Source of the DNA: Cycas panzhihuaensis
Taxonomy: Eukaryota > Plantae > Cycadophyta
Direction of reading: 5' to 3'
Length of the DNA: 64,000 nt
NCBI GenBank assembly: GCA_023213395.1
Contig: CM041465.1
Coordinates: 158,231,741-158,295,740, forward strand
Shown: positions 1-64,000 of the stretch, one piece after another
How positions within the stretch are numbered: the stretch's first letter is position 1
Layout: each line of letters opens with the position of its first letter
Made by a program: the position numbers and the translations under genes
The notes under the pieces: generated by a model
Told to the model about the DNA's origin: nothing
Database searches by the model: none
What the model saw: the letters and a program-made list of their open reading frames with translations, nothing else

Positions 1-1202
1 AAGGATGTATCTCTATAGGCAATCTCTATACGTATGCCAAGATGGACACAAGAGTTGGTCCAAGAGTATGATAATGACCACCCTTCTCAAAATTCACTAA
101 AGGAAACCCAAGAATAAAATACCATAAAATATAAGCTACCAAGAACCTTAATTTTGTGGAAGGTAAAAATATTTATACTAATAACATCAACTTTGAAGAA
201 AAAAATACTCAAGGAAGCCCACTCCATTTTGACTACTAGTCATATACCATAAATTATAGAACACATTATTTTAGAAGGGGATGAAAATAGATGTTTACAA
301 ATTTGTTGTAGAATATGACTCTTTCCAAAGTAACAAAAGAAAAAATATAAAACGTCTTAGTCTACTCCAACCATTATATATACTATAACAAAAATGGGAA
401 GAGATCTCAATGGACTTCATTACCAGATCACCAAAGCCAAAATATAAAGGTGTTATCTTTGTGGTTGTTGATAAGTTAACAAAACATATTCATTTCAAGG
501 AAATACAATTAATAATAAAATCCATCCAAGTTGTAAAAATCTTCATGAAGAAAATATATTGCCTATACAAACTTCCTAAGGTAATAGGTAGTGATCATGA
601 CCTAAAATTCTCTAGTTATTTCCATTAAGATTTATTCAAATTAACTAACATGAAATTATCCATGAGTACAACTTATCATCCCCTAGACATATGGCTAAAC
701 AAAATTAGTAAACAAGTGTATAGAAGGATACCTATATAACTTTATATTAGATAAACAATACTTATGGCACAAATGGTTCCATCTCATCGAATGGTGGTAT
801 AACACCACGTATTATAATTTGATAAATATGACCCATTCCAAGCACTCTAAATTTTTAAACTACCATATATCCTCACATGTACAAGAGTATCATGCATGTA
901 ATCTATCAAAGAACAATAAGAATAGATAGAGAAAATAGTTTGAATACTAAAATATAACTTAAATACAACTAGGAATTAGATGAAGTAGCAAGTAGATTTG
1001 CATAAGATAAAAGGATATTTTCAATAGAAGATTAGGTTTTCTTAAGATCCCAATTGTATAAGCAATCCATTATAAGGAAGATGAGTAAGCAAAAACTAGA
1101 ACTATAATTTATTAGTTTATGTCAAATGAAAGATAAAGTGAGAGAAGTAACATATAGATTGGCACTACGATAGGGTAGTTGAATCCATAATGTCTTCCAT
1201 GT
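1..1202 (+). pseudogene. Element A: decayed Ty3/gypsy (chromovirus) integrase region, left part
   Basis: ORF 410-628 MDFIT...IFVVVDKLTKHIHF...LPKVIGSDHDLKFSS matches the Ty3 integrase core. Downstream EWWYNTT and IHNVFHV motifs run up to 1202, with many stops. Confidence 0.9.
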
Positions 1203-1556
1203 TATAATATAACCCCACTTTCATAAACATTAATAAGCAAGAACCACCAAAGAGTTAAGTATCAATGTTAGTTATTAAGCTCTATGCACAGGTTGCTAAG
1301 CCCTCTAATAAGATGTAAGGCGATTAAGGCTTCTAATAAGATCATAAGAAAGAGACCCCCCTTGTGTCTATTTAAGGGTTGAAGATCACTTATAAGACAT
1401 TGACTATTGTTATTATTTTAAAGAGAAAGTACTTCAATACTCCTTTTTTGTACTTATTATATTTTTGTATGATCTATTCTAAATAAGTACTCAATTGACG
1501 CTTCATCTCCCATTTGCATTGGATTTACAAGGCTAATTTCTAGAAGTTATGCTCCA
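1203..1556 (+). repeat. 5' LTR of B
   Basis: TATAATATAACCCCACTTTCATAA...GTTATGCTCCA, direct repeat of 7455-7822. Confidence 0.92.
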
Positions 1557-1558
1557 AG

Positions 1559-1570
1559 TGGTATTAGAGG
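1559..1570 (+). promoter_or_regulatory. PBS of B (tRNA-iMet)
   Basis: TGGTATTAGAGG 2 nt after the LTR; consensus TGGTATCAGAGC. Confidence 0.85.
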
Positions 1571-1618
1571 TCAAGTTGGTGACCTTGTAGAAGTATTCTA
1601 GAAGTAGAAAAAGGGAAT

Positions 1619-1641
1619 CCCCCCCTCCCCCCCCCCCCCCC
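1619..1641. repeat. Poly-C tract (C7-T-C15)
   Basis: Seen directly in the leader of B. Confidence 0.95.
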
Positions 1642-2780
1642 AAATAATATTCATAACCCTTCTCATGCAAAAATTTATTTAGTTTTTAGTCATCTCTATT
1701 TTCTATAGTTTTAATTTTTAAATATTTCTACTCAGATTTACTCCCTCTCTCCCTTCCCCTCCTCAGGTAGATAACTTTACTTGGTAACTGCCTAATTTAG
1801 TAGAGACCTTGTGTTAGGGGTCTATAAAAAGCATAGGGATCTATCATTCTGGTTAAGTGCACTATAGCATTTCTAATCAATGTGTGAAGGACTAGAGATA
1901 ACACTCCTAAACTAAGGACTAAACATAACATAGTTTTGGAATTATGTTTTCATATACCCTCGTGTATATAGGAGGATCCTTATAAGCTCCTTCTCTATCC
2001 TAGTATAGGTGACCCTTTGATTGTTTATCCTTTATAGTACATGGGTTAGCAATTAGCACCCAAAAGTTACTCTACGTATATACTTATGCATGGTTGTAGA
2101 CCTTACGAAAATGGTCTTTCCTCTGTAGGTAGTGCCTTGAGATATCAGACCAAGATATAATATCGATAGAGAAGTTTATTATAGGGCCTATATAATCAAA
2201 CACTTCTTTGTTAAGTGTCTAATAGGCTTCCCTAAAAAATAGCTGTCAACTATTCGATTACTATAAGGACATACTTAAAAAGCAAAGGCCACAACTTTGT
2301 CAATATTGATCAGATTTAGAAACAACTTGAATAGTTATATTCACCGTAAAAAGAAAAGAAAAGAACATATCCATAACAAAGAAATCATTGTTAAAAATTA
2401 TACATCTTATTTCAATTAGTACATCATATTAATCATTTTATACTAGGCTAGCTTTTCCAGTTTATTTTTTGGTACAGTAGCACTTGAGTTATCGATGGGC
2501 CCCACAACTCTAATTTCACCCTTAAAACTCATCTACCCCGTTTTGATGAGCTCTTTGTACTTGTCCAAGTGGATAGAGTGTTATTCTAATGTCAATTTTA
2601 GGGTTAATAGGCTATAGACACCCCATATACTCTCCCTTTCTCCTCCTCCTCCTTTATCCCATCTATCTTTATAACATCTCCCTATTTCTTAAATCATGTT
2701 CTCTCTTGCCCTTTTCCATTTCGTATATTTTCCTTTCTTTCTACTTATTCCTGTTTCTTTAAACCCATTATATAGTTTTG

Positions 2781-5700
2781 ATGGCACCTACATAAGGAGG
2801 AAAGATTATTAAATAAGAGTTAGACTTAGAGAAATTTAAACATAAAATTAATGCACAAATAACTAGTCTTCCTATAAAAGTAGATTTTTTTAGCACTAAA
2901 ATAAAGATTATTGACATAATTAGTCACATGATGCAATCTCAATCCTAAAGCATAGGGACATCAAACATGACAAGAAATACTCCTCCCTTTCAAGGAAGCA
3001 ATACACCCCCATGAGGTCACCCACCAAGGTAATTGTCCTTCCACCACAAGATCAACATCCCTACTTTTGATCTAGATCTAGACAAAGAGAGCACTCATAG
3101 TTGGATTAGTAAGCTAGAATCTTACTTCATGCTTAATCTAATGTCTAAAGAAGATTTACTCCTATATGCCTCCATCCATATAGATGGAAGAGCCCATCAT
3201 TGTTTTAATTGGTAGAAATGAGAATACCCCTCCAATCAAATGTGGTCACATTTCGCAAGCTATTTTTTTGAATAATATGATGAAATATGAAGTTAATCCT
3301 TCCTCACTCAACTTATATGGTTTAAGTAAATAATAATAACGGAGGCTTTCATCGATGAATTTCAAGCCTTATATAATCACTCTTCATAAAGTCAAAGCTT
3401 GAACAAATAGACTATGATTAATATTTATGTGGTCGAACTCTAGGATTGTATACTAATGTGACTCAAGACAATGGTCATACACTCCCTTAAGAAAGCCTTT
3501 AAATGGGCATGAGTAGTTAAGGCCATTTGTAGCTGATAGACCTCCAACCACTTAAAGGGATAACCCTTAGTTTTCATAGCCTCGATAAATAGACTTTTAA
3601 TAACCATAACCTAGATTTGAAGATATCGGTTGACCACATACTAACTTTTCAAATCCCAGACTACAACAAGATGATCCAACTCACTCAAGAAGAGATCGAT
3701 AGAGAGAAGACCCCTCAACCAAATAGGTTTAAATCTTTCAAGTAGAAGCACAATGTCAACTAGAGACTAGCCTTTATATATAATACATAGAAAAGTGGAC
3801 TCTTAAACATGATTGTATTTGTAAGGCATGATGCATGGTCTTTTCTTTTGACCCCTCCCTATCCCCCAAAGAATCCTCTAACTTTGACTCTGACCATAAG
3901 GATGAAGGTGAAACCTAAGAAGACCCCACCCCAGACCCTCATCCTAAAGTTTCTTTATCAGTTATCACCTCCACTTCTTGCCTCAAATCCCTATGAATAA
4001 AAGGCATTCTCTACAAGACTCCAATGTTAATTCTGGTGGATAATGGTGCATCACTTAATTTTATTGATATCTCCTTAGCCCACCAACTTAATCTCTATAT
4101 AGTCCCAAAGATTGGCTTCACCTACGCCCTACTATGGTACAAAAATCTCCACTATGTTGGTATTATTAAAAACCTATGGGTCCATATCGATACCTATCTT
4201 TTGGTCTCATACTTCTATGCATTATCTATTAGAGGGTTTGATGTTATATTGGGGATCTAATTGCTACAAACCTTAGGGACTTATAGCATAAAAAACTCGC
4301 CTATAAATCTATCCATATTTTTCAAAGACCAAATGGGTAGGACATACAAAATCTATATGATGCAATCCCCTTCAAGCTAAGGGATTTCACTAGGGCACAT
4401 GAAATAATGACTTCAATCCAACCTTTGGTATATAGTTTATATCAATAACATTAAGGTTAGATCATAAATTCACCTATGTATCCATGATGTCCTTACCAAA
4501 TATGAATATGTATTCACTCCCCTACCTGCCACTACCCCACCTAACCATGGTTTTATCACATAATTAATCTCCAATCTAATCATGACCCTGTTAGCCTAAG
4601 ACCTTATTGTAATTCCTATTTCTAATAAAATGAAATTGAGAAACTCACTGTTGAACTCATGGACATGGGCATGATCTAGCTAAGAGAAAGCCCTTACATA
4701 GTATTAATAGTCTTAGTTAGGAAGAAAGATTGCTTCTTCTACCTCTACGTGGATTATAGGGAACTAAATAAAATTACCATCAAAAATAAGTTTCCACTCT
4801 ATGAATAGATGACATGTTAGATGAAATTCATGGAGTCTCCATCTTCTCTAAGGTAGAACTATAATCTAGCTACTATTAGATCTTAATTTCCCTAGAAGAT
4901 TACCATAAGATGACATTTCAAACTCATCACAGTTACTTCAAGCTTCAACTAATACCTTTTAGCCTTTGTAACACACCTACTACCTTCCACACTCTCATGA
5001 ATAAGAACTTTGTCCCCTACCTTTAAAAATTTATCATTGTCTTCTTTTATGATATCCTCATTTATAGTTCCAGCCTAGACCACCATATCTATCACTTAGA
5101 ACTTGTTCTTTAAATCTCACACCAATACCAATTATATACGAAAAACTTTCTAAGTATGAGTTTACAAAAATGGAAGTACAATATTTGGGGCATATTATAT
5201 CTTCAGAAGGGAGATGGGTAAACCCTGATAAAATACCCATCATCACTACCTAGCTAACATAAACCATTCTCACCTAACTACATGTATTCCTTAGCCTCAT
5301 AGGGTTTTACTATCATTTTATCTAAAACTATGCCTTCCTTATACCCCCCTAACTGATCCACTTCATAAAGTGCCTGTTAATAGTCTTCGATAATTGATAT
5401 TGCTCTCTCCTATGTCAAAGTAGTAGTGACCTCCACACCAATCCTTATCACTCCTAATTTTACCCAGCCTTTTCAATGTGAATACGATGCTTATGGATCA
5501 TCTTAGGTGTGGTCCTTATGCAAGACACCCACCCCGTTATATTTAAGAGTCACAAATTGAAAGATCATAAGATTTACCTTTCCACATATCAAAAGGAAAT
5601 GAAAGCTATTCTATACGCTATTGGAAAATGGCATGAATACCTCTTAGTTTCTAAATTTACTATTCTCATGGATCATTATAGCCTCTATAATCTATTAGAT

Positions 5701-7440
5701 TAACTGGTTTTATCCAAATAATAGGCTAAGTGGATTAACTACATATGGGCCTTTGAATTTATAATATCTTACAAGAAAGGCAAGGACAATATGGTTGTAG
5801 ATGCCCTTTTGCATTTGCATCCTGATTCTAACACCCCCAACCCTAGTCTTCACACCATATCGAAGCCCCATCCCATTTGGCTTGATGAGTTATAAGTTAA
5901 AAACTAGGCCTAGCCTAATTACTCTCAATGTAGTAAGAATGTCCTCACCCATAAAGGTTAGTCAACCTATAACAACCATCTACTCTTTTGTAATCACATC
6001 TTTATACATCCATCATTATCGTTCCTCTCTCAAATCTTAATAGAATACCACTCCACCCCCATTAGGGTCCACTTAGGATTTGATAAACCCTATCAATGTA
6101 TCCACTCTGATTTCTTTTGGCCCTATATAAAGCCTACCATATTCACTTTCATATTAGAGTGTGATCTGTGTCATCGAAACAAGGTGGAGACTAAAGTCCT
6201 TCTGAGACTCCTTTAATCTTTATACATTCCATAAGGTAAGTAGTAGGACATCACCATGGAATTTATAATGGGCTTACCTACATTTATTAGGTTTGATTCT
6301 CTTTGGATGGTCATTGATTGATTGACCAAGTATTCATGTTTCCTTCTAGTCCACACCTCATATACATCTTCTCACCTTGCTAACTTATATATCTAATTCA
6401 TCTTTTGTCTTCACAGTGTTCCCTTGACTATCATTTATGACTAAGATCCTAAGTTCACTAGCTCCTTTTGGTTAGAACTCTTTAAGGTAATAGGAACCTC
6501 TTTCAACTTGAGTTCTACCTACCACCCTCAAATGGATGGTTAATTTAAGGTCTTAAACAAAACTTTAGAAACCCACCTATGCTAGTTTGCCTCAAAACAC
6601 TAGCTCATTTTGGTAATAACTCTTGAAGGTAGTAGGAACCTCTTTCAACTTGAGTTCTGCCTACCACCCCTAAATGGATGGTTAATTTAAGGTCTTAAAC
6701 AAAACTTTAGAAACCCATCTACACTATTTTACCTTAGAACATTAAGCTAAGTGGACTTCTTGGCTTTCTCTGGTAGAATACTGGTATAACTCATCTCACC
6801 ACTCAACCATTAGTATGTTCATATTTTTGGCACTCTACAGATATCACCCCTCTTCCCACCATACCTTCGCCACTAATTTTTAAACCACCTCAGTCCAACA
6901 AAAGTTTTAAGAGATGGACCAAATCCTCAATACCCTTTAACAAAATCTAACCATTGCACAAAATCATATGAAGCAACTCGTCGAGTACTACCAATCTGAT
7001 TGATCCTTTGACATTGAAGATTTTATGTTCCTCTACCTCCAACCATACAAATCAAAGTCCCTCAAGACTTATCATGGCCATGAATTAAGCCCATGTTATT
7101 ACAACCCCTATAAAGTTCTTCACAAAATTTGTGAAGTTGCATATGCCTTTAAACTTCCCTTTGACACCAATATCCATAATGTCTTTTATATCTCTTATCT
7201 TAAAAAATGCTTGGGCAATAAAGTTACACCCCATACCACCTTACCTATTCTCACTGATGAGAAAACCCTTATAGTCTTGCAAGATTGAATCCTCACTAGT
7301 CACTAACACTACCTTTGGAATCACACTATTTCTAAGCATCTAGTATAGTGGGTCAGATGTAATATAGATGAAGCAACTTGGGAATCTAATAAGTTCATCC
7401 AGTAATACCCTCATCTCCAACACTGTAAGGACTCATCATC
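2781..7440 (+). pseudogene. gag-pol of B
   Basis: Gag KINIPTFD...WISKLESYF (3033-3215); protease LVDNGASLNFI...GFDVILG (4024-4260); RT YVDYRELNKITIKNKFPL (~4745); RNase H STYQKEMKAILYAIGKWHEYL (5509-5703); integrase SAYHP(Q)MDG; IHNVFYISYLKK; chromodomain remnant HLV*WVRCNIDEATWES (~7335-7390). Confidence 0.9.
6456..6739 (+). repeat. 142-bp tandem duplication inside B integrase
   Basis: 6456-6597 is repeated at 6598-6739 (CACTAGCTC...GGAACCTCTTTCAACTTGAGTTCT...AATGGATGGTTAATTTAAGGTCTTAAACAAAACTTTAGAAACCCA). Confidence 0.9.
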
Positions 7441-7454
7441 TCATAGAGAGGACC

Positions 7455-7822
7455 TATAACATAACCCCACTTTCATAAGCATTAAGAAGTAGGAACCACC
7501 AAAGGGCTAAGAATTGATATTAGCTATTAAGCTTTATGTGTGAGCCACTAAGCCTTCTAATAAGATGTAAGGCTATTAAGACTGCTAATAAGATCACAAG
7601 AAAGAGACCACCTTTATGTTTATTTAAGGGTTAAAGATCACTTGTAAGACATTGACTATTATTATCATTTTGAAAAGAAAGTATTTTGGTACTCCCTTTT
7701 AGTGCTCATTGTATTTTTGTGTGATTTGTTCTAAGTGATCTATTGTAAATAAGTGCTTAATTGACCCTTCATCTCCCATTTACATTGGACTTGCAAGGAT
7801 AATTTCTAGGAGTTATGCTCCA
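7455..7822 (+). repeat. 3' LTR of B (PPT AGAGAGGA at ~7445-7452)
   Basis: TATAACATAACCCCAC...GTTATGCTCCA, preceded by a purine tract. Confidence 0.92.
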
Positions 7823-8512
7823 CATGTCTCATGCCTTAAAGTAAAAAATTGGGCAAGACATCACCCCTTAAAAAGAATTTCTAAAACTATATGAAGAGGG
7901 TAAAATCATTATCAAACCAGAAGGCATCCTTTAGATCTAGATGAAAAGACCACTCTAGAGAAATCTAGGAATATCTTATAAAATGGAAGACCTTAAATCT
8001 AAAAGACATAACATGGGAATTAGAAGAATGGTATTATTAGCACCTAGGTTTAACCATACTTTAAAGGTAAAGTATATTTTTAGTGGGAGGGACTTGTAGC
8101 ATTTCTTTATTATTCTAACTGACTTTAAAACCCAATGATTACCTAGCAATCTGGTTGACTTATGGAAATTATTATTATTATTATTATTATTATTGGCTAA
8201 CTTCATAATATTCTCTAGATAACCTTATAATTTTATTCTAGTTGCCTTCCATCCTCCCTACTAGCCAAGATCCCTAAGCCCTTTTCGCCCACCTATTTAT
8301 AGAGATCCTTGGCCTTATTCTGGGGCATCTCAGGTGATTTTAGGCTACTAAAGTTTTGGTCTTAAGGGCTATAATTTTGGAGTATACCTTACCTCAAAGA
8401 GGAGTCCAATGTTAGGTACTTTAATTATAAGTTTTATACATCAAATTTACTATATTTTAATTAATATTTTAGTCCAATTCATAGAGTATAGTAGTAAATT
8501 TATTATATTGCA
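7823..8512 (+). mobile_element. Element A, right part: integrase C-terminus/chromodomain, PPT and 3' LTR
   Basis: Reading resumes as HVSCLK; EYLIKWK...ITWE chromodomain (~7969-8020); PPT GGGAGGGA 8085-8092; LTR starts TGTAGC at 8095. The right end (TTGCA 8512) is tentative. Confidence 0.8.
8168..8194. repeat. (ATT)9 microsatellite
   Basis: Seen directly; lies 10 bp left of the duplication breakpoint. Confidence 0.95.
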
Positions 8513-11500
8513 TAATTCTCATACATCTTCCATATTTTTTTATATTTTATTCTAGTTTTCCAATCTTTTATATAAAAATCCTCCATGTAACTACTTCATA
8601 ATAGAAGTGTAAGGAAGGATGGATAGAATAGTAGAATGAACTAGTGGAATAAGACTAGGCTAGCTAGGTTAGGACTTGGAAGTGAGGTAGAGACTCCATG
8701 AGATGGGGCATGAGTAAGGGAAAAGGTAAAGTAGAGTCAACTAAAGGCTCTAGTAATATGACCATGACTAAATAAGTAGGGACCTTGAAGAAAAGAGGAA
8801 GCCCTAGGGATTGAGACTTGAGTAAAAAAGATAAGCATGTTAAGCTAAGAAATCAGAGGAATATATTGAGTAAAGGGAATAAGGTAAGAGGAGGAATTCA
8901 TAGCCTCTTGAGGAGGTACATAGAAAAACCCTATATGTGAGAGGTAACCCAAACTAAGGTGCTTGAGAAAAGTGTCACAAGGGGGTTGAGAGATGCCCTT
9001 AGAATGAGAGGATTTTGAGTCCTCATGAATCTAATCCCTGAAGGCGGTTAAACTCCCTAAGATGGAGTTACTCCAAGATAAAATAAGCTAGCTTTGATAG
9101 ATGAAACTACCTGGTACTAGGATAATAGGATGTGGGATGAGGATGAGAATGAGGCAAAGGGGGGGATTGAGGAGTTGTATTGATCCCTAGACTAGTCTTT
9201 AAAAGGTTCCTAATATTAAGGAACTCAAATAAAGACATGGAATCATGCTCTCTTGGGTGAATTCCTTAAATCTACATATAGTTTCTAAGAACATTTAAGG
9301 TAATGGGTTTCTTCATATTTACTATCATGGATAGAAACATAAGAAGCAAAGTCAAAGTGTGAGAAAACATATAAAAAGAAACTAAGGGACTCTATATAAA
9401 TGATAGAGAATAGGAATGAAATCACTATAGGACACATGTTTAGAACCTTTCTAGTATGGTCTCCAAAATGTTCATCTAGGATTTGGGTGGTCCTGCATGA
9501 ACTAGTCCTCTCATAGAGAGAAGGGATGGAAGGGGGGAAGTTGATAGAATAAGACCAAAAAGATGACCTAAACTAAAGTATGGGATGCCATGGAAAGATA
9601 AACTAAATTAAGGAAGGACTCAACTACAACCCAAAAGGCTACAAGGAGAAAGAGAAATGAGGTAGATAAATGTGAGTAGTGTGCGTATGCTTAGATGTAC
9701 CACACCACCTTATAACCCATAGATAAAATGCATCATACCCACCATTAACCTAGGCTCACAAGTTAGGTAGGTACAAAAGTAATCTATGCAAGTTAGGAGG
9801 AGGTATGGGACTAAGATATACTCTAACCTAAAAGTATATAAAAAGTGATACAATGTTCTAAATAAATAAGCAATAATATCTATCTATATTCCTCTTAAAA
9901 GGAACAAACAACAAGTAAAAAACTCTAAATAGGTGGGCGGTTTACTTAGGCAATGTATCCTAAAATGTCATTACCTTTAAATATACCCTAGATACTAATT
10001 CCCAAAAGGAGGACACCCTAAGCTACCCCAACTCACATGAGAAGACTACATTGTACTATTTAATAAGGAGTGAGAGGACCAATAAGGACATAAACATAAA
10101 GGAGTAAGACCTTAGATTGATGACCTATTTATGGGTCAATTAGTGAGGACTCCCACACTTAATAATAACCTACCCATAAGAGTGGAAGGTTTAAGGACAC
10201 TTGTGTCTAATTCTAGACTCTCTCTCTCTCAAGAGAAGAAAATAAAGAGCAGTAAAACAAAAATAACTATTGTTAATAGGACTAATTATGCTTATTCAAT
10301 TATCTAAACTAGATTCATAAGTATATAGTAAGAATTATTGGTCATTCCTAATGGTCCTCACTTAATTATCCAACCCATATGTGTGATCATATAGTAAGGA
10401 TAATTACCCACCTCCAACCTACTCAAAACATAATGAGAAGTATGTGCTCTATCTTAATTGCAAGACTAATTGCTAATGGATCAAGTTTGGCCAATCTAGT
10501 CCCTCCTCTAACTCAATGTGAATTAAATCTAAAGAGGAGTAATAATAAAGAGCAAAGTCTACTTATGTAATTATCATGCACTTTTATTATGTGAAAGTAA
10601 TAACCAACCTATCTAATCATGCCAAGCAAGTGCAATGGAAAAGGAAACAAGTAATTTTGAATAACCACTCATGTAACATATGCTAGAAGTAAGATGCATA
10701 TAAGAACCATTGAATCTTAAGCAAACTTACACTTGAGCTCCCCTAGTAAATTGCATAAGAAAAATAAGGAATAAGGTAAGAGATAAATGGTATTTCCATT
10801 CGTCTTTGTCATTTTTCTTTTTGTTGTTTCTTTTTCTTAGTTTTTTCTACTTTTTGCTTTTGGGTGCTATGAGTAAAAAGAACTCTGAGGAGGAAAATAT
10901 ATAACACACCATAAAGGAGAAAATGTTATGCAAAGGGACATTAGATGATTCCATTTTTTATGGAAAGCATGGAATGAAATGAATGTGAAAGAAAGAAGCA
11001 TGTAAAACTACTTTTAAATCTCAAAAGCAATTAGACAAATTACCTACACAAGAGGCAATAAATAACCAATGAAACATAAAGAGCAAGAAATAGTTGAAAG
11101 ACATGAAAAAACCAACTTACAAATAAATTAATTAAATAAGGGGAAATCACCTTAGATATATGCTCAAAGGATAAGAAATCTCCTTGGAATACTAGTGGGT
11201 GAGTGAGTAGGTAAGGAAATGTATATGTAAACTAAACAAATAGAAGATGTGATAGGGAGATTAATCCCAAACAATGACAAAATCAAGGTGAGAGACATTG
11301 TTTCTAAGTCTAAACACAAGAGAGAAAAAGGAAAATATAGACCTCAAGTAACAAGAAATAAATGAGCCCAAAACAATAAGAATAACCCCAAGCAACTTCA
11401 AGAAGAAAACTAATAAATTGACAATCAAATAAGCATGCATTCAAGTAAGCAAATCTCTCAAATAATGAAGAGGCAAATGAAAAAAATAAACAATGAAATG

Positions 11501-12820
11501 AGAAGTAGAAAATAGTAGAATGAAAGAGAAGGAATCTAAAGAGAGATCTTTGATCTTATATGTAACAAGCAATGAGATGTGCTTGTCCATAATAAGAAGG
11601 ATAGATCAACATGATAACACTCCAAGTCCTATAAGTAAATAAAGAAATATATCATTTTAATGGAGGAATTATTTATGAAATAAAAGGAACGAAAATGAAA
11701 ACAATAATGAAGTCACCAAGAAATAATATAAAACTCACCAATGTAGAGTTTAATTCATTATCAGATAAAATTGGATAGCAATCCACTAGAGAAAATAACT
11801 TTCATGAAATGAAATCACTAAGAGAATATCATAAGAGTGATGAATCCGAATGTGAAATCACCAAAGAACACAATCTCATACACTCTATGCTCTAAATAAC
11901 TCTAATAATTATGCAAAAGTATCCAAATATTCTCCACCAACAAGTACTAAGGAATGAAAACCAATAACTTCTTAAAAGTAATTAATCATTAATAACTAGA
12001 GTGTTAAAAGATGGAGTACCAAAAGATAAAGTGACAAAAGATGGAGTGCCAAAAGATTCCAACCAAATGAGCACTTAGAACTAAATAGGCTACCATAGGA
12101 TATTATTTGATATTAAAAACCATTGCATTTTTAGTCGATAATATTCCTAGCCATATTAGGTTTGGGGAAAAGGCCAAAACAAAAACAAAAATGCTAAGAA
12201 AATCTTGATTTTTTTAAATTTAGAATTACAGAATTAATACTACAAATAGACACTAATACCATATAATTACAATTGATACTGTAAAAATCACATGGTATCT
12301 CAAAATGTATTTCATGGTACTACAAAATTATTCTATGGTATCACAATAAATATTACATAATGTTGTGATAAAGCTATAATTTTTGTGGCATGAATGTAAA
12401 CTTTATAGTACGATACTCTAAAATTGTAAAAATAAAAATAGATAAGCTTTCAAAGTGATAAAAAATCACTCTAAATAACTAACACAAGCAATTAATCATC
12501 TAAAGAGAAGGGGTATGAGAGAGTGCTAGCATTATGAGAAAGAAATATACCTTTAGTCCTTGTATGGTGATGTTTTTATTTTTAATCATTAGATCCTTAG
12601 GATCATGGGTTCAAAGCACAAGTTGACAATACATCATACAACATCATATCACATAGAGTGAATGGAAATAGAGATTAATACCTGACTAATAAGGAGGCCA
12701 AAAATATGGGAAATAATATTCACTCTCAAGGATATTATCCCTTTCATTATAGATTGGTATTCATTACTTCTCATGTACAAGTAGCCCACATAGTTACTTA
12801 AAAAAGATAATGGTGTGACT
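8205..12820. repeat. 4.6-kb tandem duplication, copy 1
   Basis: ATAATATTCTCTAG...AATGGTGTGACT, collinear with 12821-17432 over its whole length; differences are mostly transitions. Confidence 0.95.
8513..12760 (-). mobile_element. Segment C: unclassified retroelement-like sequence (second copy ~13131-17373)
   Basis: Lies between the end of A's LTR and the truncated gag of D. On the minus strand it begins TGCCAACC (copy 2, 17373) where D's reading frame breaks off. Pro/Ser-rich decayed coding-like tract ~8580-9500; no recognisable domain. Confidence 0.4.
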
Positions 12821-25421: not shown

Positions 25422-25532
25422 CAAGTAGGGTATATGTGGTTTTACTATGAGTTTTATAAGATCAGGCAGTCTAGATATTTGAACAAAAAATATCTACTAG
25501 AATCATAAGTCATGAAGAGGGGTCATTACAAG

Positions 25533-27115: not shown

Positions 27116-27131
27116 GGGGGGGGGGGGGGGG
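27116..27131. repeat. G16 homopolymer in the left LTR of H
   Basis: Seen directly; absent from the paired LTR. Confidence 0.95.
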
Positions 27132-48914: not shown

Positions 48915-48937
48915 TGTGTGTGTGTGTGTGTGTGTGT
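48915..48937. repeat. (TG)11 microsatellite
   Basis: Seen directly. Confidence 0.95.
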
Positions 48938-53600: not shown

Positions 53601-54840
53601 TCTTTGATTGTTTTCTTCATGAATCTTAGAAACATATTTGCATTATAAGACATATGAGTTGAATAACCATAATCAATATACCATTCATCTTTCCTATTAG
53701 AAGTTTGAACATTCTAACTTATATAGAAAATATTTTATTCTTTATCAGTTATAATATTGGCTATGTTATCTTTATGGCATTCATATTAATAGTGTCCTTC
53801 CATTCCATACTTGTAGTAAGAAGCACCAAAAACTCTTCCTCTTTTAATTCCTCTTGATGGTGTTCTTCCTCTTCTTCTTGAAGAACTCCTTTCTCTTAAT
53901 GGAGTGAGATTCTTTCTTCTTGTATAGTTTCTTCCTCTTAATCTTCCTCTTCTTGACTGAAATTATCCTTGTTACCCTTGTCCATATCCATATCCATATC
54001 TAAAATTGCTTTATCCATAATTTGATGCCAATGAAGATGCTCCTACTAGTCCTTATCCTAGTCCATATCCATATCTAAAATTATCTTATCCATAATTTAA
54101 TATTGATGAAGATGCTCTTTCTTATCCTTGTCCATATGAATATGTTAGTGGTGGAGTTATTCCTTGATTTGATGATCCCCTAAATTTTTCTCTCAAAAAA
54201 GCCTTAGAAGCAAAGGCTTGTTCTAAATTATCAATTAAACTCTTCTTTTTCTTTTTTATCAATAATATTAATAGTAACTCATCAATATTCAATGTTGATA
54301 AGTCCCTTATCACTCCTATAGTTGAAATAACTAATTCAAATTTCCTTATCTCTTATATACATCTCAAAATTTTCTCTACAACTCTTTATTTAGGTACTTG
54401 CTAACCTAATGCACTCAATTAGTTTACAAAATCCTAAACTCTAGTGATAAAGGAATTGATAGATTCTATAGCATACATCTTGAGATTCTCAAAGTTTCTC
54501 CTTAAATTTTGAATCCTAGTGTTTATACTATCTTCAAATGATATTTTCAAAGTAATTCAAGCATCATAAGAAGTAAGAAGATTACAAATGCAAGGAAATA
54601 TATCATCATGAACATTATGAAATACAATTGCAAGTGTTTCACTATCTTTTCTTTTTATTTCTTCATTTAAATTCTCTTGATAAGGAGTCAAATTAGTTGT
54701 AAGAGAAATCAGAAAAGAAGCATATAATCTTTAAAAACAATCTTCCAAAATTACTTAGCTTACAAAGTAGGCTTTATTTTTCTTGACCATATGAAATAAT
54801 TACATTCATCAAGCTTAGGAACCACCAAAAAAGTATCCAT
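50650..54840 (-). pseudogene. gag-pol of L
   Basis: VPKLDECNYFIWSRK; RDLSTLNIDELL; zinc knuckle; LWYYKFSHLNY; KCIVIGYSSEQKAY...ISRDVIFDE; KYKARLVA; LYVDDL; DIFTKAL. Confidence 0.92.
53965..54140 (-). repeat. ~75-bp in-frame tandem repeat encoding Gly/Tyr/Gln-rich Gag segment
   Basis: TCCATATCCATATCTAAAATT...TTATCCATAATTT...TGAAGATGCTC present twice. Confidence 0.85.
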
Positions 54841-56959
54841 TATAAATGAAATTTGAGTAATTAATATTTGTAAAATCAACTACAAATATAAATTAAGCAT
54901 AATTAAGCACAATCATAATCAAGAGTATTGGAGAGAGCATAAGCAAGCACATAAATATCCATTCAAAATGGAATATGCACCACTATCACCTACCCTTCTA
55001 ATTGGGACAATCTTTTATCTCCTTTAAACTTTATTAATGAGCTTAATAAGACCACTAATAAGGTTTAAAACAAACTTTCCCTTAGGTTAAATATTAAGCT
55101 TTAATGTTTATGAAATGTTTCTTAAAAAATTACATCAAATGATTATAAAAAATTACTTTGTTGGTTACCACATAGGGCTCCAAATAAAGTGTTAACTTTG
55201 ACTGAAAATAACTCCAAGCTACTTTAAATTATATATCAAAATGGCCATCTTTAAATTATGGTTCTAATAGTTTAGAAGGCTCATAAATTAAACTCTTAAT
55301 TTTAAAGTTATAAGTAAAAAGGCATAGGTACTTGAAAATGATCCAAAAAATTAAATTAGGAGGTTTTTAGCCCCTTTCACACTATATCACTTAGTCACAT
55401 GTTGACTTAATATGACCACCTTCTTAATCAAGGGGTGCTCCATAGACTTCAAAGATAATTCCAATCTAGCTTAATGTATCAAAAAGTTTGTAAAAAGAAA
55501 ATTGCTATTATTAAAAAATTTAAAAGTGATCGACCTTTAATGATTGACTTATAGGCAATGAATCTCTATGAAAATTTCAATCGAACTTTGATTATATTAA
55601 TGGAATCTCCTAAATTTCTTATTTAAATCTCAATATAACTAGAATAGCATGCTATGAGTAAGATATATTAGAAGAGCTCAACAAAGGTGATTGTCATGTG
55701 GATGTAGGGCTATGGACTTCATCGATGTAGGCTTAGGCACAATGTTGCCAACTGAAGTGATGTTATACTTTAATGAAAGCTCAAGCATTAATAAGTGTAG
55801 TCATGTAGGAGCCATAATTAGAGTTTAATAATAGGAAGCTTAGTTGAGGTAATTGTAGGAGCATGTTATGTGGGATGTAAGGCTACTCTTCACCACGGAC
55901 AAAGATGACATATTTCACTCTTCACATAGGAGCTTTTAGTATACCCTTTAAATCCTTCACATGAGGTGAATCTCATGCATATATAGGGGCTTCAACTTGG
56001 TAATATAGTTCATGAAGATGAATGATATGAATGTAGACGAGTCAATCAACTTACAAGGACTCAAATAGAGGAGATTACTATTCATTTATTTTCTTAGGAT
56101 GTTCCACGATAATATGCTCAGTCAAGACGTTCCATGGTAGTGTGCTCAATCAAATAACCATACAAGTAGGGTTTATACATGGGTGAAGGATTTATATGGT
56201 TATAAGGTCAAATCTCAACAATAGAGGCAAACAAAGGAATTTAAATCAAATAGAGTGAAATAGAGTCAACTATAATTAAAACTGGCTTAAAATGAAAGAA
56301 ATAGGCTGAAATAGAGTTAAATAGCTAAAACGATATTTCATTGGTTTTGGATATATATACAAAATAAACTTAAGTGGATTTAAATGGACTCTTCAGTTTG
56401 ATAAACAGAGTCAAGAGTTTAGTCACAAAATAAACTTTTTGACAAGGTTTTGATAGACTTTTTCCTTCAAACAAGCTATGGACCCCTCAATAATAGATTT
56501 CCAGTAACAATGGACAATCAATAAGCATAAGATTAATAAAAAATAATAGCTTTATAACTTACAAGATAGACTTGATGTGATAATAATACTTGGCAACCTT
56601 CAACTAAGAAAAACTTTATTATGATACCTTACTTCAGCTTCTTGTCTTTAGCAAGTGCTCACATTTTAGCTTCTCATCTTCAACAAATTCTCTAATACCA
56701 TGTTATAAATATAACCACATAAGATATCATAATCAAGATTAATAGAATATCATTAGAGTAATTCCATAATGGAGCTCAGACATAATTATAATGAATTAGA
56801 ATCTCATTCATCTTACATCTCACCATGTAGGTATACTTATAGTCATGTTATGGGTATATGTACCTCATTTATAACCAATCACATTTTACCTTTATGTTAA
56901 CCAATCATACATAACCTTTTACTTAACTAGTTACATTGAATATGCATTATCTTCCAATA

Positions 56960-58586
56960 ATTACCTCCCTCTATGGAAGTGAAATCTCATATGAGCAAGT
57001 TTATTTTGTTTAAATCAAAAATGATAATGAGATGACCATAATATAATCTTCACTCTTATCTTGTTTCAAACCCTCAATATGATGTAATATTGTATATATT
57101 TTATCAAAGGGAAAAATAAATAAGGTTCTTACAAGAATAATTCTTCTAAGTGGACATAAATAAAAAGTAAGTAGAGGAAAAAGGGAAAATACAAGCGCTT
57201 AAGCAAAAGGAATGAAGAAATAATGTAGAAATGCATAAAATTGAAAAAAATAATGGAACAAAGGACTATATATTTAATTTTTATATGTTCATGAAAAGGA
57301 AAAGGGGGTCATTATCTTGATCTACTTAGGTTAAACTAGTAAGTAAATAACTCAAAAGGAATGAAATAGAATTTGATACTCAAAATCATATTTTACTAGT
57401 CTTGAGTTAAATAATTCTATCATTTAAAAATCCTTGTTTTACACATAACTTAGGATATATATTTATGGCCTTCCTATATATTCAATATTGAATCCATACA
57501 AATATCATCAGACACTCCCTAATGTATACTCGTATAATATTCAAACTCAAAATAAGTGGAAAATATAAGGATTTATCAATGGATAAGAAAGACTAATATA
57601 GGATAAGGATTATTACTTTCTCAAAACAAATAATTTACCTCAAAACATCAAATAAAGTGCTTAAGAAAATGAAGTAAATAATCGTTGACAAAAATGATTT
57701 GTGCTTTATTTTAATACATTATGTATATAATATGATGATTGAGTGCTTTGAGCACTACCCAACATAGTCAATTGATACACAATTAATGCCAAATTGAATG
57801 AGGACTCAAAGCCTTTAGTAGCAAATATTCTTACTAAGTATTTATTAGCTCATTTAATCCATTATGAGTGATAATATCCCTCACTAAAAATGTTGCCCTA
57901 GTTACATATATGAATAATATATACCAACAAAAAGAGAGGATATGATCAAAAGAATGAGAATTCTAAAGAAGCCTAAAGAGAGCATTAGAAAAAAAATCCC
58001 CTCCCCCTTAACTATCCCAGGGAATGCTTACTTATAGTGTAATACCTTTTGTTGTAGTCCTTCTCCACTTGGGCTATAAGTTAGGAGTAAAATATCTCCA
58101 TTAATAACGTAGGTTTTTATGCTTGTTTTGTTAATTAGTAACCATTATATTGAGGAAATACTTGTGTCTCTTAATGAGACAACATAATCAATATTGAGTT
58201 TTTGGTGTGATAATATCCTGTCCATGGGTTTGAGTTACTATCATTATAGAGGTGCGCTTAGTCATTAGGATAATTATGCTTGATGTATTACTATTAGGAA
58301 AAATTGTGTACAACCATTGGAATAGTCCTCAAGGAGTTGCATCTATTAGCAACCACCTCAAAGTTAGCTAGTTATGGCACTAATCTATCTTTCCTATGTA
58401 GAGGTTAGATCTAAGGCCTTATATGAACCATGCTTTATTTAATCTACCATATAGGAAACCATATGGAAAATGGGAAGGAAACATGCTATTTTATGATACT
58501 TGCTATCCTCCACTTATGGGAGTCTTTAAGATCATATTTTTACCTTCAAGGATTAACCCCTATATTATATTATCTAACTTCATTTC
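56960..58586 (-). repeat. Left (3') LTR of M, main part; true right boundary not determined
   Basis: Collinear with ~62390-64000. Confidence 0.85.
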
Positions 58587-60299
58587 ATCATATTTGATTA
58601 TTCTCCTACACTATAATTCTTAATAAAGGATCACCTTCTCAATTTGGGTAATACCTATTTTTCACAATTACTTACTTACATGTGGGGGATCATGAGTAAC
58701 CATATAATTGAAGTCTACTTTAATTGTCTATTACTCTTAGAACATACCACATCTTATAAACCTTATATAGATTTACCTACCATGACATCTCTCTAATCTT
58801 TCAAAATGAGGAGTTACTCTTATTGACCCCTTCCAAACAATACTTAATTATTGTGATTCTTCCCTTTGTCTAGAAATCTATTTTTATAACCAGTTGAGTT
58901 AGACATGGGTGTTTAGAATGATTTATTTATCATAAGTTCTTGAGATCAGATATGAGTTCCTTATTAAATGAACACACAACCACTTTTATAAAGTACCAAT
59001 CCTATTACAATGATTAAAAGGTTGAGTAACCATGTTGAGTAATTATCACTTAATCATGAGGCAAGAAGGGATAATTAAGGTTACTTTATAAAGTGCCCTT
59101 TATAATCGAGGATTTCAATCTCCTTAATATACATATTAGAGCCAATCCATTAGACTCTTTTATTTCTTAGAGATACATCCCCACTTAATCATTTTGCTAC
59201 ATATGTAGGCATTTTGTGAAGTTTTACCCTTTTACTAATTCTTAATTAATGTCTTCCTGCTTGATAGCTTGCCATTAGATGATTACTTTTTGTCTTTCCT
59301 AATCTAGAAGATAGATATTACACACAGGGGATGATATAGTGCATATGTTCTTTAATCTAATTTTCTTGGTCATTTGTCATTTTATTTCCCGTGTACATGA
59401 TTCCCATAAGTATTATGCCCATTGGATATAGTCTTATGGATTTTATGCTTTCATTTTCTTGCCTCCTTACTCCTTGCTTTGGCCATTATTTTTAGAAAAA
59501 TAATCCCCAGAATAGGACTTCCTTAGGGACAACAAGTTATTGGAGTGATTGTTATCACCTATTTATCTCCCATATTAACTTCACCTGCTAGATATGTTCC
59601 TGTGAAACAATCTCCTATATGATTATTTATCAAATGAGTGCTTCATGTAGGTCCATGACCCATGGGAAAGGCTTATTTATAATTCATTTTTTCATAGATT
59701 TAACTCCCATGTTGACTTCTCCAACTCTATATTTCTTTTGCAAAATCATTTACTTTAGGATTTATCCATTTCTTTCACTAGGATTATACTCCATTTATTC
59801 CTCATTTTAGGTGATAAAAATGAAGGGTAATATTAGCCTTCTTCTTTTTATTAACCCTTAATGGGTTGATAAAAACATAAAAAGAATAGATAACATCTGT
59901 TAATTGTGAGCATGGTGACTCAAAACCCTTTAACTACTTGAGATAGATTAAGTAGCCTTTCTTTCTTCTTAAGGTATATCATCTTTTACTCCCTCCTCCA
60001 TTATGACCATAGCCTGTGTGCTCATGAAATATAACTATATTGATAGTGCGAGAAATAGACACCCTATGTAGCCACTTATTCTTATCTTTAAGACAGAAAA
60101 AGAAATCTTACCTTAATATATACAAGGGAAAAGTACTAAGTATATGATTAATGGCTCAATTTAGATTCCTTTTATTTAAGCACTAAGTATTTTTCCATGT
60201 GCTATCCACCACTATTAGAGTAGGGACTCAAGACTCCACTTGGTTAGTAGGAGATTACTAAAATACTGATGATGAGGCAAGAGTACCTCCTTTTCAGAG

Positions 60300-62230
60300 A
60301 CTAAAAAACAATCAAAGTATCCTTTGGTACACAAAACCTTTGATCAGTGATTTTAGTGGGAACCTTAAGCTTGCCATTAACCTCTTGTTCTTATTATATT
60401 GTATAAAAGAGAAATTAATTATAAAATAAGAACTAAAATATGTAAAGTAGGGATAAAAAAGAATGAAACTTGGTTGTATGTAATTTAACTCTAACTCTTC
60501 CTTTGAGGTACCATGTTCTTTTAATATGTCTTGAGATTCATAAATTTCCTTAGAGATTGTTGCTTGAGGGACTACTTCTAGGGTTTGCTCCATTATAGTC
60601 TTAGTAGTAAAGTCTTCTTCTTAATTTCCTACTATAAACAACATGGATCCACATCCTTTGAATTTTTAGGATGGACTCCCAAAATTAGACTGTAATGCTT
60701 GAGCAAAGTAAATCTCATGGCTATATGAGGGCAAATCATTCAAATAGGATAGGAAAATAGATACCTCTCCTTCAAAATCCAAATTTATCATTGTATTCCA
60801 ATTTGACTTAATCTTCTCAAAAAATATTTCTAAGTCACTAATGTAATCAACTTTATCCTTTTGTGGTGCTACATTGACAAGATATCTTATCATCTTGACT
60901 TTAACTAGATCAATGATCTTGAGTTCTTAATAAGCCTCTAGATCATTCATGGGTTCTTCATCCTTGAATTCATGACCTTATACTTGCTCTTCACTATTAA
61001 GAATATTTTTAAATTAGAGCATAATAAAGTTAGAATCATGTCATTCTTCTCACTATCTTCTATATCTTTTGAAGAATTAATTTTGTGGAGATTTTCCAGT
61101 GTTCATCCATTTACTTTCAAGACTTCTAAATCACTTTTAGAATCAAAATCTATGTCGACTATCTCCTTGCCATAAAGTAAACTGAAGACTAAATTTGGAA
61201 TATTGTCTATCACCCCTATAAAAGATGTGGAATCTATAGGAGATAGAGCAGGAAATGAGTACACTTTGTTAAGCTCTTTGGTATTATCCTTGACATCTTT
61301 AGTTTCAGTTGCATGTAATTTATCTACATACTAAAGCTCTACATCATCCAAAAAAACATCACTTATGTTGATAGTTTGAGGTAGCTTACTACCTTTTATT
61401 ATTAAGGAAAGAGTGATTGAATCTTCCAACTTGATGATCTCTTATTCTTGGAGACACAAACTATTAGTCTACACTATTGGGTTACATTATATATCCTCCA
61501 CCTTATGGATACTTGATTTCTATTTTGAAATTCCTCTCATCTATCATCATATAATCAAACTTAGTATCCTAGTTAGGCTCATCAGATTCTTCTTGGGAGG
61601 GACATAACATATTCCAATTCTCTATGATCATTCCAAAATATAGGGAAAGAGCTTCTATATTTTGAAGGTAGACTATTCATTTCAAGACTACCTAGGTTTT
61701 TACATCTACGTTTAGACCCTTGATGAAACAATTTATGAGGTATTGCTCTCTTAGTCTGTATTCAAGGCCGATTTGATCAAGGAAAATATGGAACCTTTCT
61801 ACATAGGCAAAGAAATTTTATGTGCTCTTTTTCGTTATACTGGATAATTCCCTCAATAATGTTGTAATCCTTTCATGACTTTCAAATCTCAATTTAAAAA
61901 CATACACCAATTTGTTCCAATTATGAATGGAGGTGGCTAGTAAGGAATTGAACCAAGGCATAACTTCTCCTATTAAAGAATAGACAAATAATTATTTCTT
62001 TAATTTTATACCTTTTGCATGTAGTACAAAAGTCCATAATATGTCTTTTGACTAAACATGACTCAACCCTACTAAACTTAAGACAATATCTTAGAACATG
62101 TACTAGAAAATTATGGAATGAATCTTCTAGATCTAGAGGACTATTACAAAATGATGAAAGGATATCTTCCTATTTAGTCATACTTATGACAACTTATATC
62201 TCTTGTAGATTATAGGGCTCCCCATGTACT
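60300..62230 (-). pseudogene. gag of M plus acidic extension
   Basis: HIMDFCTTCKR and GEVMPWFNSLLATSIHNWNKLVYVFKLRFE (Retrotrans_gag-type), followed by ORFs 60666-60893 and 60312-60593. Confidence 0.7.
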
Positions 62231-62313
62231 CCTTGGAACTATGAAGTGAAATAAATACATATACAAATCATTAGCTCTTTCAAAAATTACAACAAAGGCC
62301 TTTTTGGGGGAGT

Positions 62314-62332
62314 GTCCCGAGTATGGTCACTA
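62314..62332 (-). promoter_or_regulatory. Putative PBS of M (tRNA-Arg-like)
   Basis: TAGTGACCATACTCGGGAC restores to TGGCGACCA...GGGA; 2 nt from the LTR edge. Confidence 0.55.
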
Positions 62333-62334
62333 GC

Positions 62335-64000
62335 TATTTCTTGGGGTTTTGGTTAGAAAGAAAAATAAACCCTACTCTCTCTAGCTATCATTGCCTCTTC
62401 CTATAGAAGTGAAATCTCATATGAGTGGGTCTACGTTGTTCAAATCAACAATAATAATGAGATAACCATAGTATATTCTTCACTCTTAATTTACTTCTAA
62501 CCTTTAGTATGATATAATATTACACATATTTTATAAAATAGAAAAAAAATAGGGCTCTTAGAGGAATGATTCTTCTAAGGGGATGTGAAGGAAAACTAAG
62601 TAGAGGGAAAGGGGAAAAAATACAAAAGCTTAAGCAAAAGGAGAAAAGAAAGGAAGTAGAAATGCATGGAATTGAAGAAAATAATGGAATAGAGGATTGT
62701 ATCTTCAATTTCTATATATTCATGACAAGGAAAGGTAGGTCCTTATCTTGATCTGCCTAAGCTAAGCCAGTAGGTAAAGACCTTAGAGTAAAGGAATTAG
62801 AATTTGATGCTCAAAATCACATTTTACTAGTCTTAAGTCAAATAATTCTATCGTTCAAAAATCCTAATTATGCATGTAGCTCAAGATATATTTTATATAC
62901 CTTCTTGTATATTCAATATTAAATCTACATGAATGTCATCAAAAACATCTTAGCGTAAATTTATGTAACATTCAAATTTTAAGTAAGCAAAAAACATAAA
63001 GGATTTATCAATAAATAAGAAAGACCAATGTAAGATAAGGATAATTATTTTCTCAAAATAAATAATTTACCTCAAAACATCCAATAGGGTGCTTAACAAA
63101 ATGAAGCAAATAATTATTGACAAAAATGATCCATGGTTTATTTTAAAATATTATATATTCAATAAGATAAGTGAGTGCCTTGAGCACTACCCAACATAGT
63201 TAGTACCAAATAGAATGAGGACTTAAATCCTTTAACAACAAATGTTCTTACTAAGTACTTATTAGCTCATTTAATCCACTACAATCCATAATATCCCTTT
63301 CCAAAAATGTTACCCTAGTTATATATACATATAATAGATACTAATAGAAAGACAGGATATGAAGAAAATAATGAGGATTCTAAAGAAGCCTAAAGAAAGA
63401 ATTTAAAAATAAATCCCCCTCCCCCCTTCCCCCTAAGGGAACACCTACTTATAGTGTAACACCTTCCATTACAGGCCTTCTACACTTGGGCTATAAGTTG
63501 GGACTACAATATCTCCATTGACAACTTGGTATTTGCTTCTATTTTGTTAATTAGCAACCATTATACTACAAAAACATTCTTGTCTCCTCATGAGATGGTG
63601 TATTCCACACCAAGTTTTTAGTGTGATAATATCTTCTCCATGGGTCTGAGCTACCATTACCATATAGGTGTGTTTAGCCATTAGGGTAATTATGCTTAAT
63701 GAACTATTATTAGGATAACTTGTGTACAACCATTGGAATAGTCTTCAAGGAGGTGCATCAATTAGTAACCACCTTGAAGTTAGCTAGTTATTACATTACT
63801 TTGTCTTTCCTACACAGGGGTTAGATCTAGGGCTATGTACTAACTTTGTTTTAGTTAATCCTTCACATAGGAAACCATAAGGAAAAGGAGAAGGAAACAT
63901 ATTACTTCATGCTACTTACTATCCTCCACTTATCGGTGTCTTCACAATTGAGTTTTTACCTTTAAGGGCTAACCCCTACACTTTGGTATCCATTCATTTC
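62335..64000 (-). repeat. Right (5') LTR of M, at least 1.67 kb, truncated by the window end
   Basis: TATTTCTTGGGGTTTTGGTTAGAAAGAAAAATA matches 50339 onward. Confidence 0.88.

What the first reader, a model, noticed from the sequence alone, without database searches (positions are those of the whole stretch)
1..64000. CpA/TpG-biased C>T hypermutation of transposons (RIP-like spectrum in a plant genome)
Seen: a hand alignment of K's LTRs gives 20 substitutions in 225 bp. 18 are transitions; assuming C/G is ancestral, 12 are at CpA/TpG, 2 at CpG, 2 at CpT and 2 at CpC. Of 29 scorable termini of paired LTRs, 12 read TA instead of TG or CA. All four imperfect TSD pairs differ by a single transition (AGGAT/AGGAC, AAACT/GAACT, ATTGT/ATTAT, ATTGC/ATTAC). 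PBSs read TGGTATTAGAG and TGGTATCAAAG. The premature stops I examined are CAA>TAA, CAG>TAG or TGG>TGA/TAG. Established: plant TE decay is usually concentrated at CG/CHG, CpA>TpA is the signature of fungal RIP, and non-CG methylation by DNMT3-type and CMT2-type enzymes favours CA/CW contexts. Inference: this host permanently disables repeats by heavy CHH (CpA) methylation plus deamination, or by an active RIP-like process.
Basis: partly seen in the sequence, partly recalled or inferred. Interest (0 to 1): 0.8.

Follow-up and report, generated by a model that had tools for sequence, protein, structure and literature searches.

The report
CAA-biased methylation decay of plant retrotransposons
Old retrotransposon copies in this plant DNA lose cytosines fastest at CG and CHG sites and next at CAA, which likely records ordinary DNA methylation slowly turning into mutations rather than a fungal-style active mutation defence.

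Summary
The window is nested, decayed LTR retrotransposons, probably of a gymnosperm (copia RT groups with Ginkgo proteins). A CpA excess survives normalisation (C/T mismatch per site: CAH 0.34, CTH 0.17, CCH 0.14). It is not RIP-like. Polarised on 1,140 conserved codons, C>T is 16-fold more frequent than T>C and ranks CG 29/37, CHG 55/83, CAA 43/111, CTA 18/103, CAT+CAC 18/141, other CHH 31/328. About a quarter of apparent CpA events are hidden CG/CHG decay. CpA is not depleted, and the 4.6-kb tandem duplicate has the lowest Ts/Tv (1.66). The stop-codon and LTR-terminus arguments are largely circular. Best reading: passive deamination of CG/CHG/CHH methylation, with CAA-preferring CHH methylation as published for plant chromomethylases. 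The residual interest is its strength: CAA mutates at about 45% of the CHG rate, predicting heavy germline CAA methylation, unlike conifers. No methylome or single-copy control was available.

The parts
1..1203 (+). Decayed gypsy integrase region, interrupted by element P1
   Evidence: tblastn with gypsy homologs; used in the codon tally
1203..7822 (+). P1: gypsy LTR element; LTRs 1203-1556 / 7455-7822, PBS at 1559, TSD CATGT/CATGT, LTR divergence 15.5%
8205..17434 (.). 4.6-kb tandem duplicate (8205-12822 / 12821-17434), 8.1% divergent, Ts/Tv 1.66; the best RIP-type substrate in the window
   Evidence: no Pfam hit in 3 minus-strand frames of 13000-16601
18443..22999 (+). P3: copia element; LTRs 18443-18668 / 22774-22999, TSD AAACT/GAACT
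24205..25449 (-). Decayed copia RT/RNase H fragment
26608..31987 (-). P4: copia element; LTRs 26608-27269 / 31323-31987, TSD AGGAT/AGGAC
33097..48674 (-). P5: oldest LTR pair (25.7% divergent), TSD GAAAT/GAAAT, hosting P6 and K
34817..45779 (-). P6: copia element with gag, protease, integrase and RT; TSD ATTGT/ATTAT; RT nearest to Ginkgo proteins
41409..44447 (-). K (P7): short, very high-copy LTR element nested in P6; TSD GCTAC/GCTAC; both TA termini lie in CAG context
50399..56959 (-). P8: copia element; left LTR truncated at its outer end; TSD ATTGC/ATTAC
56957..64000 (-). P9: 1.6-kb repeat pair (56957-58586 / 62387-64000, 21% divergent) around a Retrotrans_gag domain

Best explanation
These dead retrotransposons lose C to T in the order CG > CHG >> CAA > CTA/CAT > other CHH, most likely by slow passive deamination of cytosines that the host keeps methylated, with a likely CAA-preferring CHH methyltransferase writing the third tier. 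Shown here: the direction (C>T about 16 times T>C), the ranking, the near exhaustion of CG and CHG, and events on both strands of every copy. Inferred: (1) these cytosines are methylated in the germ-line or meristem lineage; (2) 5mC deaminates to T and escapes repair (established chemistry); (3) CAA/CWA methylation is laid down by a chromomethylase in heterochromatin, as published for Arabidopsis, maize, tomato, pine and Ceratopteris, possibly with a plant DNMT3 contributing; (4) over a long residence time this breaks the ORFs and lowers GC to about 31%. Inactivation would be a by-product of silencing, not a targeted mutagenesis step.
For: Codon-polarised tally, 1,140 conserved codons in 7 coding regions: C>T 194/803 vs T>C 14/919. 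By context: CG 29/37, CHG 55/83, CAA 43/111, CTA 18/103, CAT+CAC 18/141, rest 31/328; CAA vs rest OR 6.1, p=2.5e-11. The CAA excess holds on both strands (21/50, 22/61), without Gln codons (32/86) and in all 7 regions. Pair data with identical flanks: CAG .75, CTG .60, CAA .42, CAT .27, CTA .19, CAC .14, others .08-.12. The codon rates, halved and simulated, reproduce these pair values except CAT. Double mismatches CA|TG 41 vs CG|TA 4, CAA|TAG 16 vs 3 and CTA|TTG 10 vs 2 show decaying CG and CWG. Composition: CG 0.13, CAG/CTG 0.31, CA 1.05. Termini: CAG 4/4, CAA 4/11, CAT 1/6, CAC 1/5. Family-polarised direction in K: 35:6, 32:9, 33:7 and 33:11 in four runs. Published methylation preferences match: CAA/CTA or CAA/CAT for chromomethylases (PMC5221884), CAA/CTA in pine (PMC10082083), CWA in fern (PMC9477723). 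Deamination-driven GC loss with 35.7% CHH is reported in Welwitschia (PMC8275611).
Against: No methylation data and no single-copy control exist for this host (no genome). The second-tier context is inconsistent: CAT is high in the pairs (.27) and in K's interior (11/81 vs CAA 3/53; only 40 of 66 rows shown). Gypsy codons show CAT+CAC 8/44 and CTA 1/26, while copia codons show CTA 17/77 and CAT+CAC 10/97. A pure CWA writer therefore does not explain everything. Conifer CHH methylation is only about 1.5-2.7%, far too low for a CAA rate near half the CHG rate unless this lineage differs. Across species, methylation level does not predict transition rate (PMC12154656). 105 of 1,140 codons (35 ambiguous, 70 multi-hit) were dropped from the tally.
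Confidence: 0.75

Rival explanations
1. An active RIP-like process recognises duplicated DNA and mutates CpA to TpA in bursts.
For: CAH mutates 2-2.5 times more than other CHH. C>T is strongly directional. Two of 10 strand series show mild clustering (z -2.45 and -2.24).
Against: CG and CHG exceed CpA per site. A CpA-only simulation gives CAA=CAT=CAC and about 2 CA|TG doubles, against the observed .42/.27/.14 and 41. CpA is not depleted (o/e 1.05); TpA/ApT is 0.97 vs 1.00 shuffled; (CA+TG)/(AC+GT) is 1.21 vs 1.00. Conserved Trp codons give TAG 4 and TGA 3, with 27 of 40 intact. The linked tandem duplicate has the lowest Ts/Tv, 1.66, and no strand runs (z 0.10, -0.31). K's family is very high-copy with LTRs about 91% alike.
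Confidence: 0.04
2. The CHH writer is a plant DNMT3 orthologue (kept in gymnosperms) with an animal-like CpA preference, not a chromomethylase. The deamination step is the same, so this is not exclusive of the best explanation.
For: The +1 base A has the largest effect among CHH sites (odds 3.6, vs 2.4 for +2 A). CAT is raised in the pairs and in K's interior. Gypsy codons show CAT+CAC above the rest (p=0.0096). DNMT3 persists in gymnosperms, and moss DNMT3b makes most CHH methylation (PMC6453930; PMC13595168).
Against: Moss DNMT3 expressed in human cells prefers CAC and also methylates CCC and CTC (CAC was not the top context in moss itself), whereas CAC, CCC and CTC are low here (.14.09.08). 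CTA is raised in copia codons and in pairs. The host's methyltransferase genes could not be examined.
Confidence: 0.3
3. The CAA excess is a methylation-independent neighbour effect on deamination or repair, acting genome-wide.
For: Effects are graded across -1, +1, +2 and +3 positions. No unmethylated control was available. Methylation alone does not predict mutability across species.
Against: A and T neighbours differ strongly (+1: 3.6 vs 1.4; +2: 2.4 vs 1.2), which is not a simple melting effect. A 5' T lowers the rate (89/583 vs A 110/508), unlike UV or APOBEC-type TC preference (recalled). The top CHH context is the one plant chromomethylases share.
Confidence: 0.15
4. The CpA signal is only an artefact of unpolarised pairwise counting (hidden CG/CHG decay, T>C back-mutation, CpA abundance).
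For: 108 of 421 apparent CpA events are hidden CG/CHG decay. Uniform-CHH simulations give a loose CAH excess of 0.27-0.31 vs CCH 0.18-0.19.
Against: The same simulations are flat (0.15-0.19) under identical flanks, where the data range from .08 to .42. The polarised codon tally keeps CAA at OR 6.
Confidence: 0.03

Closest known systems
5mC-deamination decay of plant TEs (wheat, PMC2996936; 108-species spectra, PMC12154656)
   Same: Transition excess concentrated at CG and CHG, with matching CG/CHG depletion; Ts/Tv of the same order (wheat TEs 2.8; here 1.7-8, LTR pairs 3.7).
   Different: Here CG/CHG are nearly exhausted, so most remaining events are CHH, and CHH is split about 5-fold between CAA and the rest. 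In the passages I read, those papers treat CHH as one class.
Chromomethylase CHH sub-context methylation (Arabidopsis CMT2, maize ZMET2/5, tomato CAA/CAT, pine PtCMT1, Ceratopteris CWA)
   Same: CAA is the top CHH context; CTA or CAT second; C-rich contexts lowest.
   Different: Those are methylation measurements; this is a mutational footprint. The second context is mixed (CTA and CAT), and the implied level is far above that of pine or fern.
Welwitschia mirabilis genome (PMC8275611)
   Same: Gymnosperm, GC-poor decayed LTR elements (about 29% GC; 31% here), deamination invoked, high CHH methylation.
   Different: The host here appears to be another lineage (RT nearest Ginkgo; several related organisms hold the repeats). 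No sub-context terms were found in that paper's main text.
Fungal repeat-induced point mutation (RID/DIM-2; PMC12543289)
   Same: Directional C>T in repeats with a CpA component.
   Different: CG/CHG are hotter than CpA, there is no CpA depletion or TpA gain, third-base dependence is strong, and the tandem duplicate is not preferentially hit.

Membership tests
RIP / RIP-like | CpA is the dominant C>T context per available site | tested here: not met
   CG 29/37 and CHG 55/83 vs CAH 61/252
RIP / RIP-like | CpA/TpG depleted and TpA enriched in repeats | tested here: not met
   CA o/e 1.05, TA 0.96; indices 0.97 and 1.21 vs shuffled 1.00 and 1.00
RIP / RIP-like | Linked long duplications hit hardest, almost only by transitions | tested here: not met
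   4.6-kb tandem duplicate: 233 transitions, 140 transversions, lowest Ts/Tv of 10 pairs
RIP / RIP-like | Strand-coordinated clusters of mutations | tested here: inconclusive
   2 of 10 series with z below -2, none in the tandem duplicate; unpolarised test
RIP / RIP-like | RID/Masc1 methyltransferase and premeiotic timing | not testable with these tools
   No host genome held
5mC-deamination decay of plant TEs | Directional C>T excess on both strands | tested here: met
   194/803 vs T>C 14/919; sense 77/304, antisense 117/499
5mC-deamination decay of plant TEs | CG and CHG hottest and depleted | tested here: met
5mC-deamination decay of plant TEs | Mutated contexts are methylated; repeats exceed single-copy DNA | not testable with these tools
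   No methylome; no single-copy gene recognised in the window
Chromomethylase (CWA-type) CHH footprint | CAA is the top CHH context | tested here: met
   43/111 vs 31/328; 109/261 in pairs; exception: K interior 3/53
Chromomethylase (CWA-type) CHH footprint | CTA above CAT/CAC | tested here: inconclusive
   Met in copia codons; not met in gypsy codons, pairs or K interior
Plant DNMT3 CHH footprint | CAC/CTC/CCC among the methylated contexts (moss enzyme in human cells) | tested here: not met
   CAC .14, CTC .08, CCC .09 vs PMC13595168; a gymnosperm enzyme may differ

The most novel reading that the evidence does not exclude
A gymnosperm lineage (probably cycads) keeps heavy, heritable CAA/CAT-directed CHH methylation on its retrotransposons, written by a non-angiosperm CMT or DNMT3.
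Probability: 0.4. Interest if true: 0.55.

Novelty: new member of a known kind. Interest (0 to 1): 0.33.

Why it matters
It removes the claim of RIP in a plant for this window and shows the counting traps behind it. What remains is a testable prediction: TE CAA sites in this gymnosperm carry much more CHH methylation than the 1.5-2.7% CHH measured in conifers. More generally, trinucleotide C>T rates in old LTR elements could serve as a fossil record of CHH-methyltransferase specificity in the germ line of giant-genome plants that lack methylomes. The context-dependent rates also bias LTR-based dating.

Tried and rejected
No whole host genome is held, so the genome-wide, single-copy and methyltransferase-gene checks could not be run. 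A scan of metagenome contigs for a 22-base K LTR motif found 0 matches; the second scan was not used. The first read-laying showed only 40 of 488 difference rows, too few and too selected for a spectrum. Whole-window six-frame Pfam scans were too long and gave no result; annotation rests on tblastn and three smaller Pfam scans. The gypsy homolog search gave 2 weak hits; the closest representative (P0133, 64%) has no name. A palindromic CNNG effect was tested and not seen (CATG o/e 1.07, CTAG 0.99). The Trp TAG:TGA test has few events (4:3) and is weak alone. The careful tree did not finish; the quick tree is reported, with long branches and biased composition for window rows. Earlier-findings searches returned nothing. 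Paper searches listed no cycad methylome and no CHH sub-context mutation spectrum for plant TEs; the library lacks most subscription journals, so this is not proof of absence.
Full report
Setting. The window is about 31% GC with only three stop-free frames of 150 aa or more. It is a nest of LTR retrotransposons: five copia coding regions, at least three gypsy regions, seven LTR pairs with TSDs, a 4.6-kb tandem duplicate and a 1.6-kb repeat pair around a gag domain. No host genome is held. The P6 reverse transcriptase hits four Ginkgo gene models first (54%, 421-432 bits; next 390) among 7,209 hits. Three of five window RTs form a clade with those four Ginkgo rows (SH-aLRT 98, quick tree of 41 rows, long branches). 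Four laid runs from three coded organisms each put about 60,000 contigs on a 9-kb stretch, so the families are high-copy and shared among related species. A gymnosperm host is likely (about 75%). A cycad is my guess, because Ginkgo has one living species and cycads are its sister group (recalled).

Observation. The four imperfect TSDs and both PBS variants are present. I count 10 TA termini of 27 scorable, with 1 unscorable. After normalising, K alone is not significant (p=0.15). All ten pairs together give C/T mismatches per C site of CG 29/63, CHG 53/110, CAH 393/1140, CTH 207/1226 and CCH 103/717.

Counting traps. CG and CHG contribute few events because few remain: o/e CG 0.13, CAG/CTG 0.31, CCG 0.07, while CA is 1.05 and TA 0.96. 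A CG that decays oppositely in two copies appears as CA|TG and is scored as two CpA events. There are 41 such doubles against 4 CG|TA, plus 16 CAA|TAG (vs 3) and 10 CTA|TTG (vs 2) from CWG (nine pairs, 147-bp tandem left out). That is 108 of 421 apparent CpA events. The only single-transition routes to a stop are CAA, CAG, CGA and TGG. TA termini by third base are CAG 4/4, CAA 4/11, CAT 1/6 and CAC 1/5, and both of K's are CAG.

Clean spectrum. With two identical bases on each side, the pair rates are CAG 12/16, CTG 6/10, CAA 109/261, CAT 73/275, CTA 50/269, CAC 15/110, CTT 35/286, CCT 17/175, CCC 7/81, CCA 9/112 and CTC 12/150. CAA exceeds the C/T-rich contexts in all nine pairs. Simulations with hot CG/CHG and uniform CHH are flat under this filter (0.15-0.19). 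A CpA-only model gives CAA=CAT=CAC and almost no CA|TG doubles. Independent polarisation used codons at columns at least 80% conserved among 120 copia and 152 gypsy homologs: 1,140 codons, of which 764 were intact, 271 had a single change, and 35 ambiguous and 70 multi-hit codons were dropped. C>T is 194/803 and T>C 14/919. By context: CG 29/37, CHG 55/83, CAA 43/111, CTA 18/103, CAT+CAC 18/141, rest 31/328. As rates these are 1.53, 1.09, 0.49, 0.19, 0.14 and 0.10. An earlier copia-only run at 90% conservation kept the order, but CAH vs other CHH was not significant there (p=0.13). The codon rates, halved to match divergence, reproduce the pair spectrum except CAT (0.15 vs 0.27). Family-polarised sites in K's interior confirm the direction (35:6, 32:9, 33:7, 33:11) but favour CAT (11/81) over CAA (3/53) among the 40 of 66 rows shown. 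So CAA first is solid in two of three data sets, and the second place (CTA or CAT) is unresolved.

RIP test. RIP makes C>T at CpA in repeats and needs RID or DIM-2 (PMC12543289, passages). Here CG and CHG are hotter than CpA. TpA/ApT is 0.97 and (CA+TG)/(AC+GT) is 1.21, against 1.00 for both in shuffles. Conserved Trp codons are TGG 27, TAG 4 and TGA 3 of 40. The linked 4.6-kb duplicate has the lowest Ts/Tv (1.66) and no strand runs; 2 of 10 series elsewhere show mild clustering. It does not work like RIP.

Mechanism and literature (all seen as passages of the main text; no supplements read). CHH methylation in heterochromatin is densest at CAA/CTA in Arabidopsis (35-40%) and maize and at CAA/CAT in tomato, through chromomethylases (PMC5221884). 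Chinese pine prefers CAA and CTA (PMC10082083), and Ceratopteris prefers CWA at low level (PMC9477723). DNMT3 persists in gymnosperms, and moss dnmt3b mutants keep residual CWA methylation (PMC6453930). The moss enzyme prefers CAC in human cells (PMC13595168). DRM2 passages (PMC8172135) added only background. Welwitschia has 35.7% CHH methylation and 29% GC attributed to deamination, against about 1.5% CHH in spruce (PMC8275611) and 2.5-2.7% in Wollemi pine (PMC10473749). Wheat TEs show Ts/Tv 2.8 with CG/CHG above CHH (PMC2996936). CG and CHG transitions drive plant spectra, but methylation level does not predict rate (PMC12154656). The Cycas genome paper's main text has no occurrence of 'methylation' (PMC9023351). 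Supplements of the moss, Welwitschia, pine and wheat papers may hold sub-context data that bear on novelty.

Verdict. The pattern is real but mostly explained by known plant biology: passive decay of methylated cytosines, with a CAA-biased CHH tier that becomes visible once CG and CHG are spent. The RIP-like reading is not supported. The noteworthy residue is that CAA mutates about five times faster than other CHH and at about 45% of the CHG rate. This predicts heavy CHH methylation in a gymnosperm for which my searches listed no methylome. Interest 0.33.

Noticed in passing
window 8205-17434: The 4.6-kb tandem duplicate has many transversions (140 vs 233 transitions, including 26 C:G) and no Pfam hit in the three frames scanned; its origin (internal duplication, giant LTR or assembly issue) is unexplained.
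   Followed up: partly
window 6456-6744: 147-bp tandem duplication inside the integrase of gypsy element P1, 11% divergent.
   Followed up: no
window 41409-44447: K is a short (3 kb) LTR element with a 187-aa open frame (42949-43512, +) that has no Pfam match; summed contig depth reaches 1e5, suggesting a very high-copy non-autonomous family.
   Followed up: partly
window 1203/7455 and 33097/48389: In P1 and P5 both LTRs begin with TA at the same end, so the change may predate insertion or these families may have non-canonical termini.
   Followed up: no
conserved codons, whole window: C>A (34/798) is about four times the other transversions, possibly oxidative G>T damage or another consequence of methylation.
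   Followed up: no
window 5503-6600: One unnamed protein (P0133) is 64% identical to P1's RNase H-integrase, far above all others (37% or less over comparable lengths); likely an intact relative from the same plant group.
   Followed up: partly
window 32727-33022 and 53976-54143: Short degenerate tandem repeats with periods of about 83 and 75 bp.
   Followed up: no
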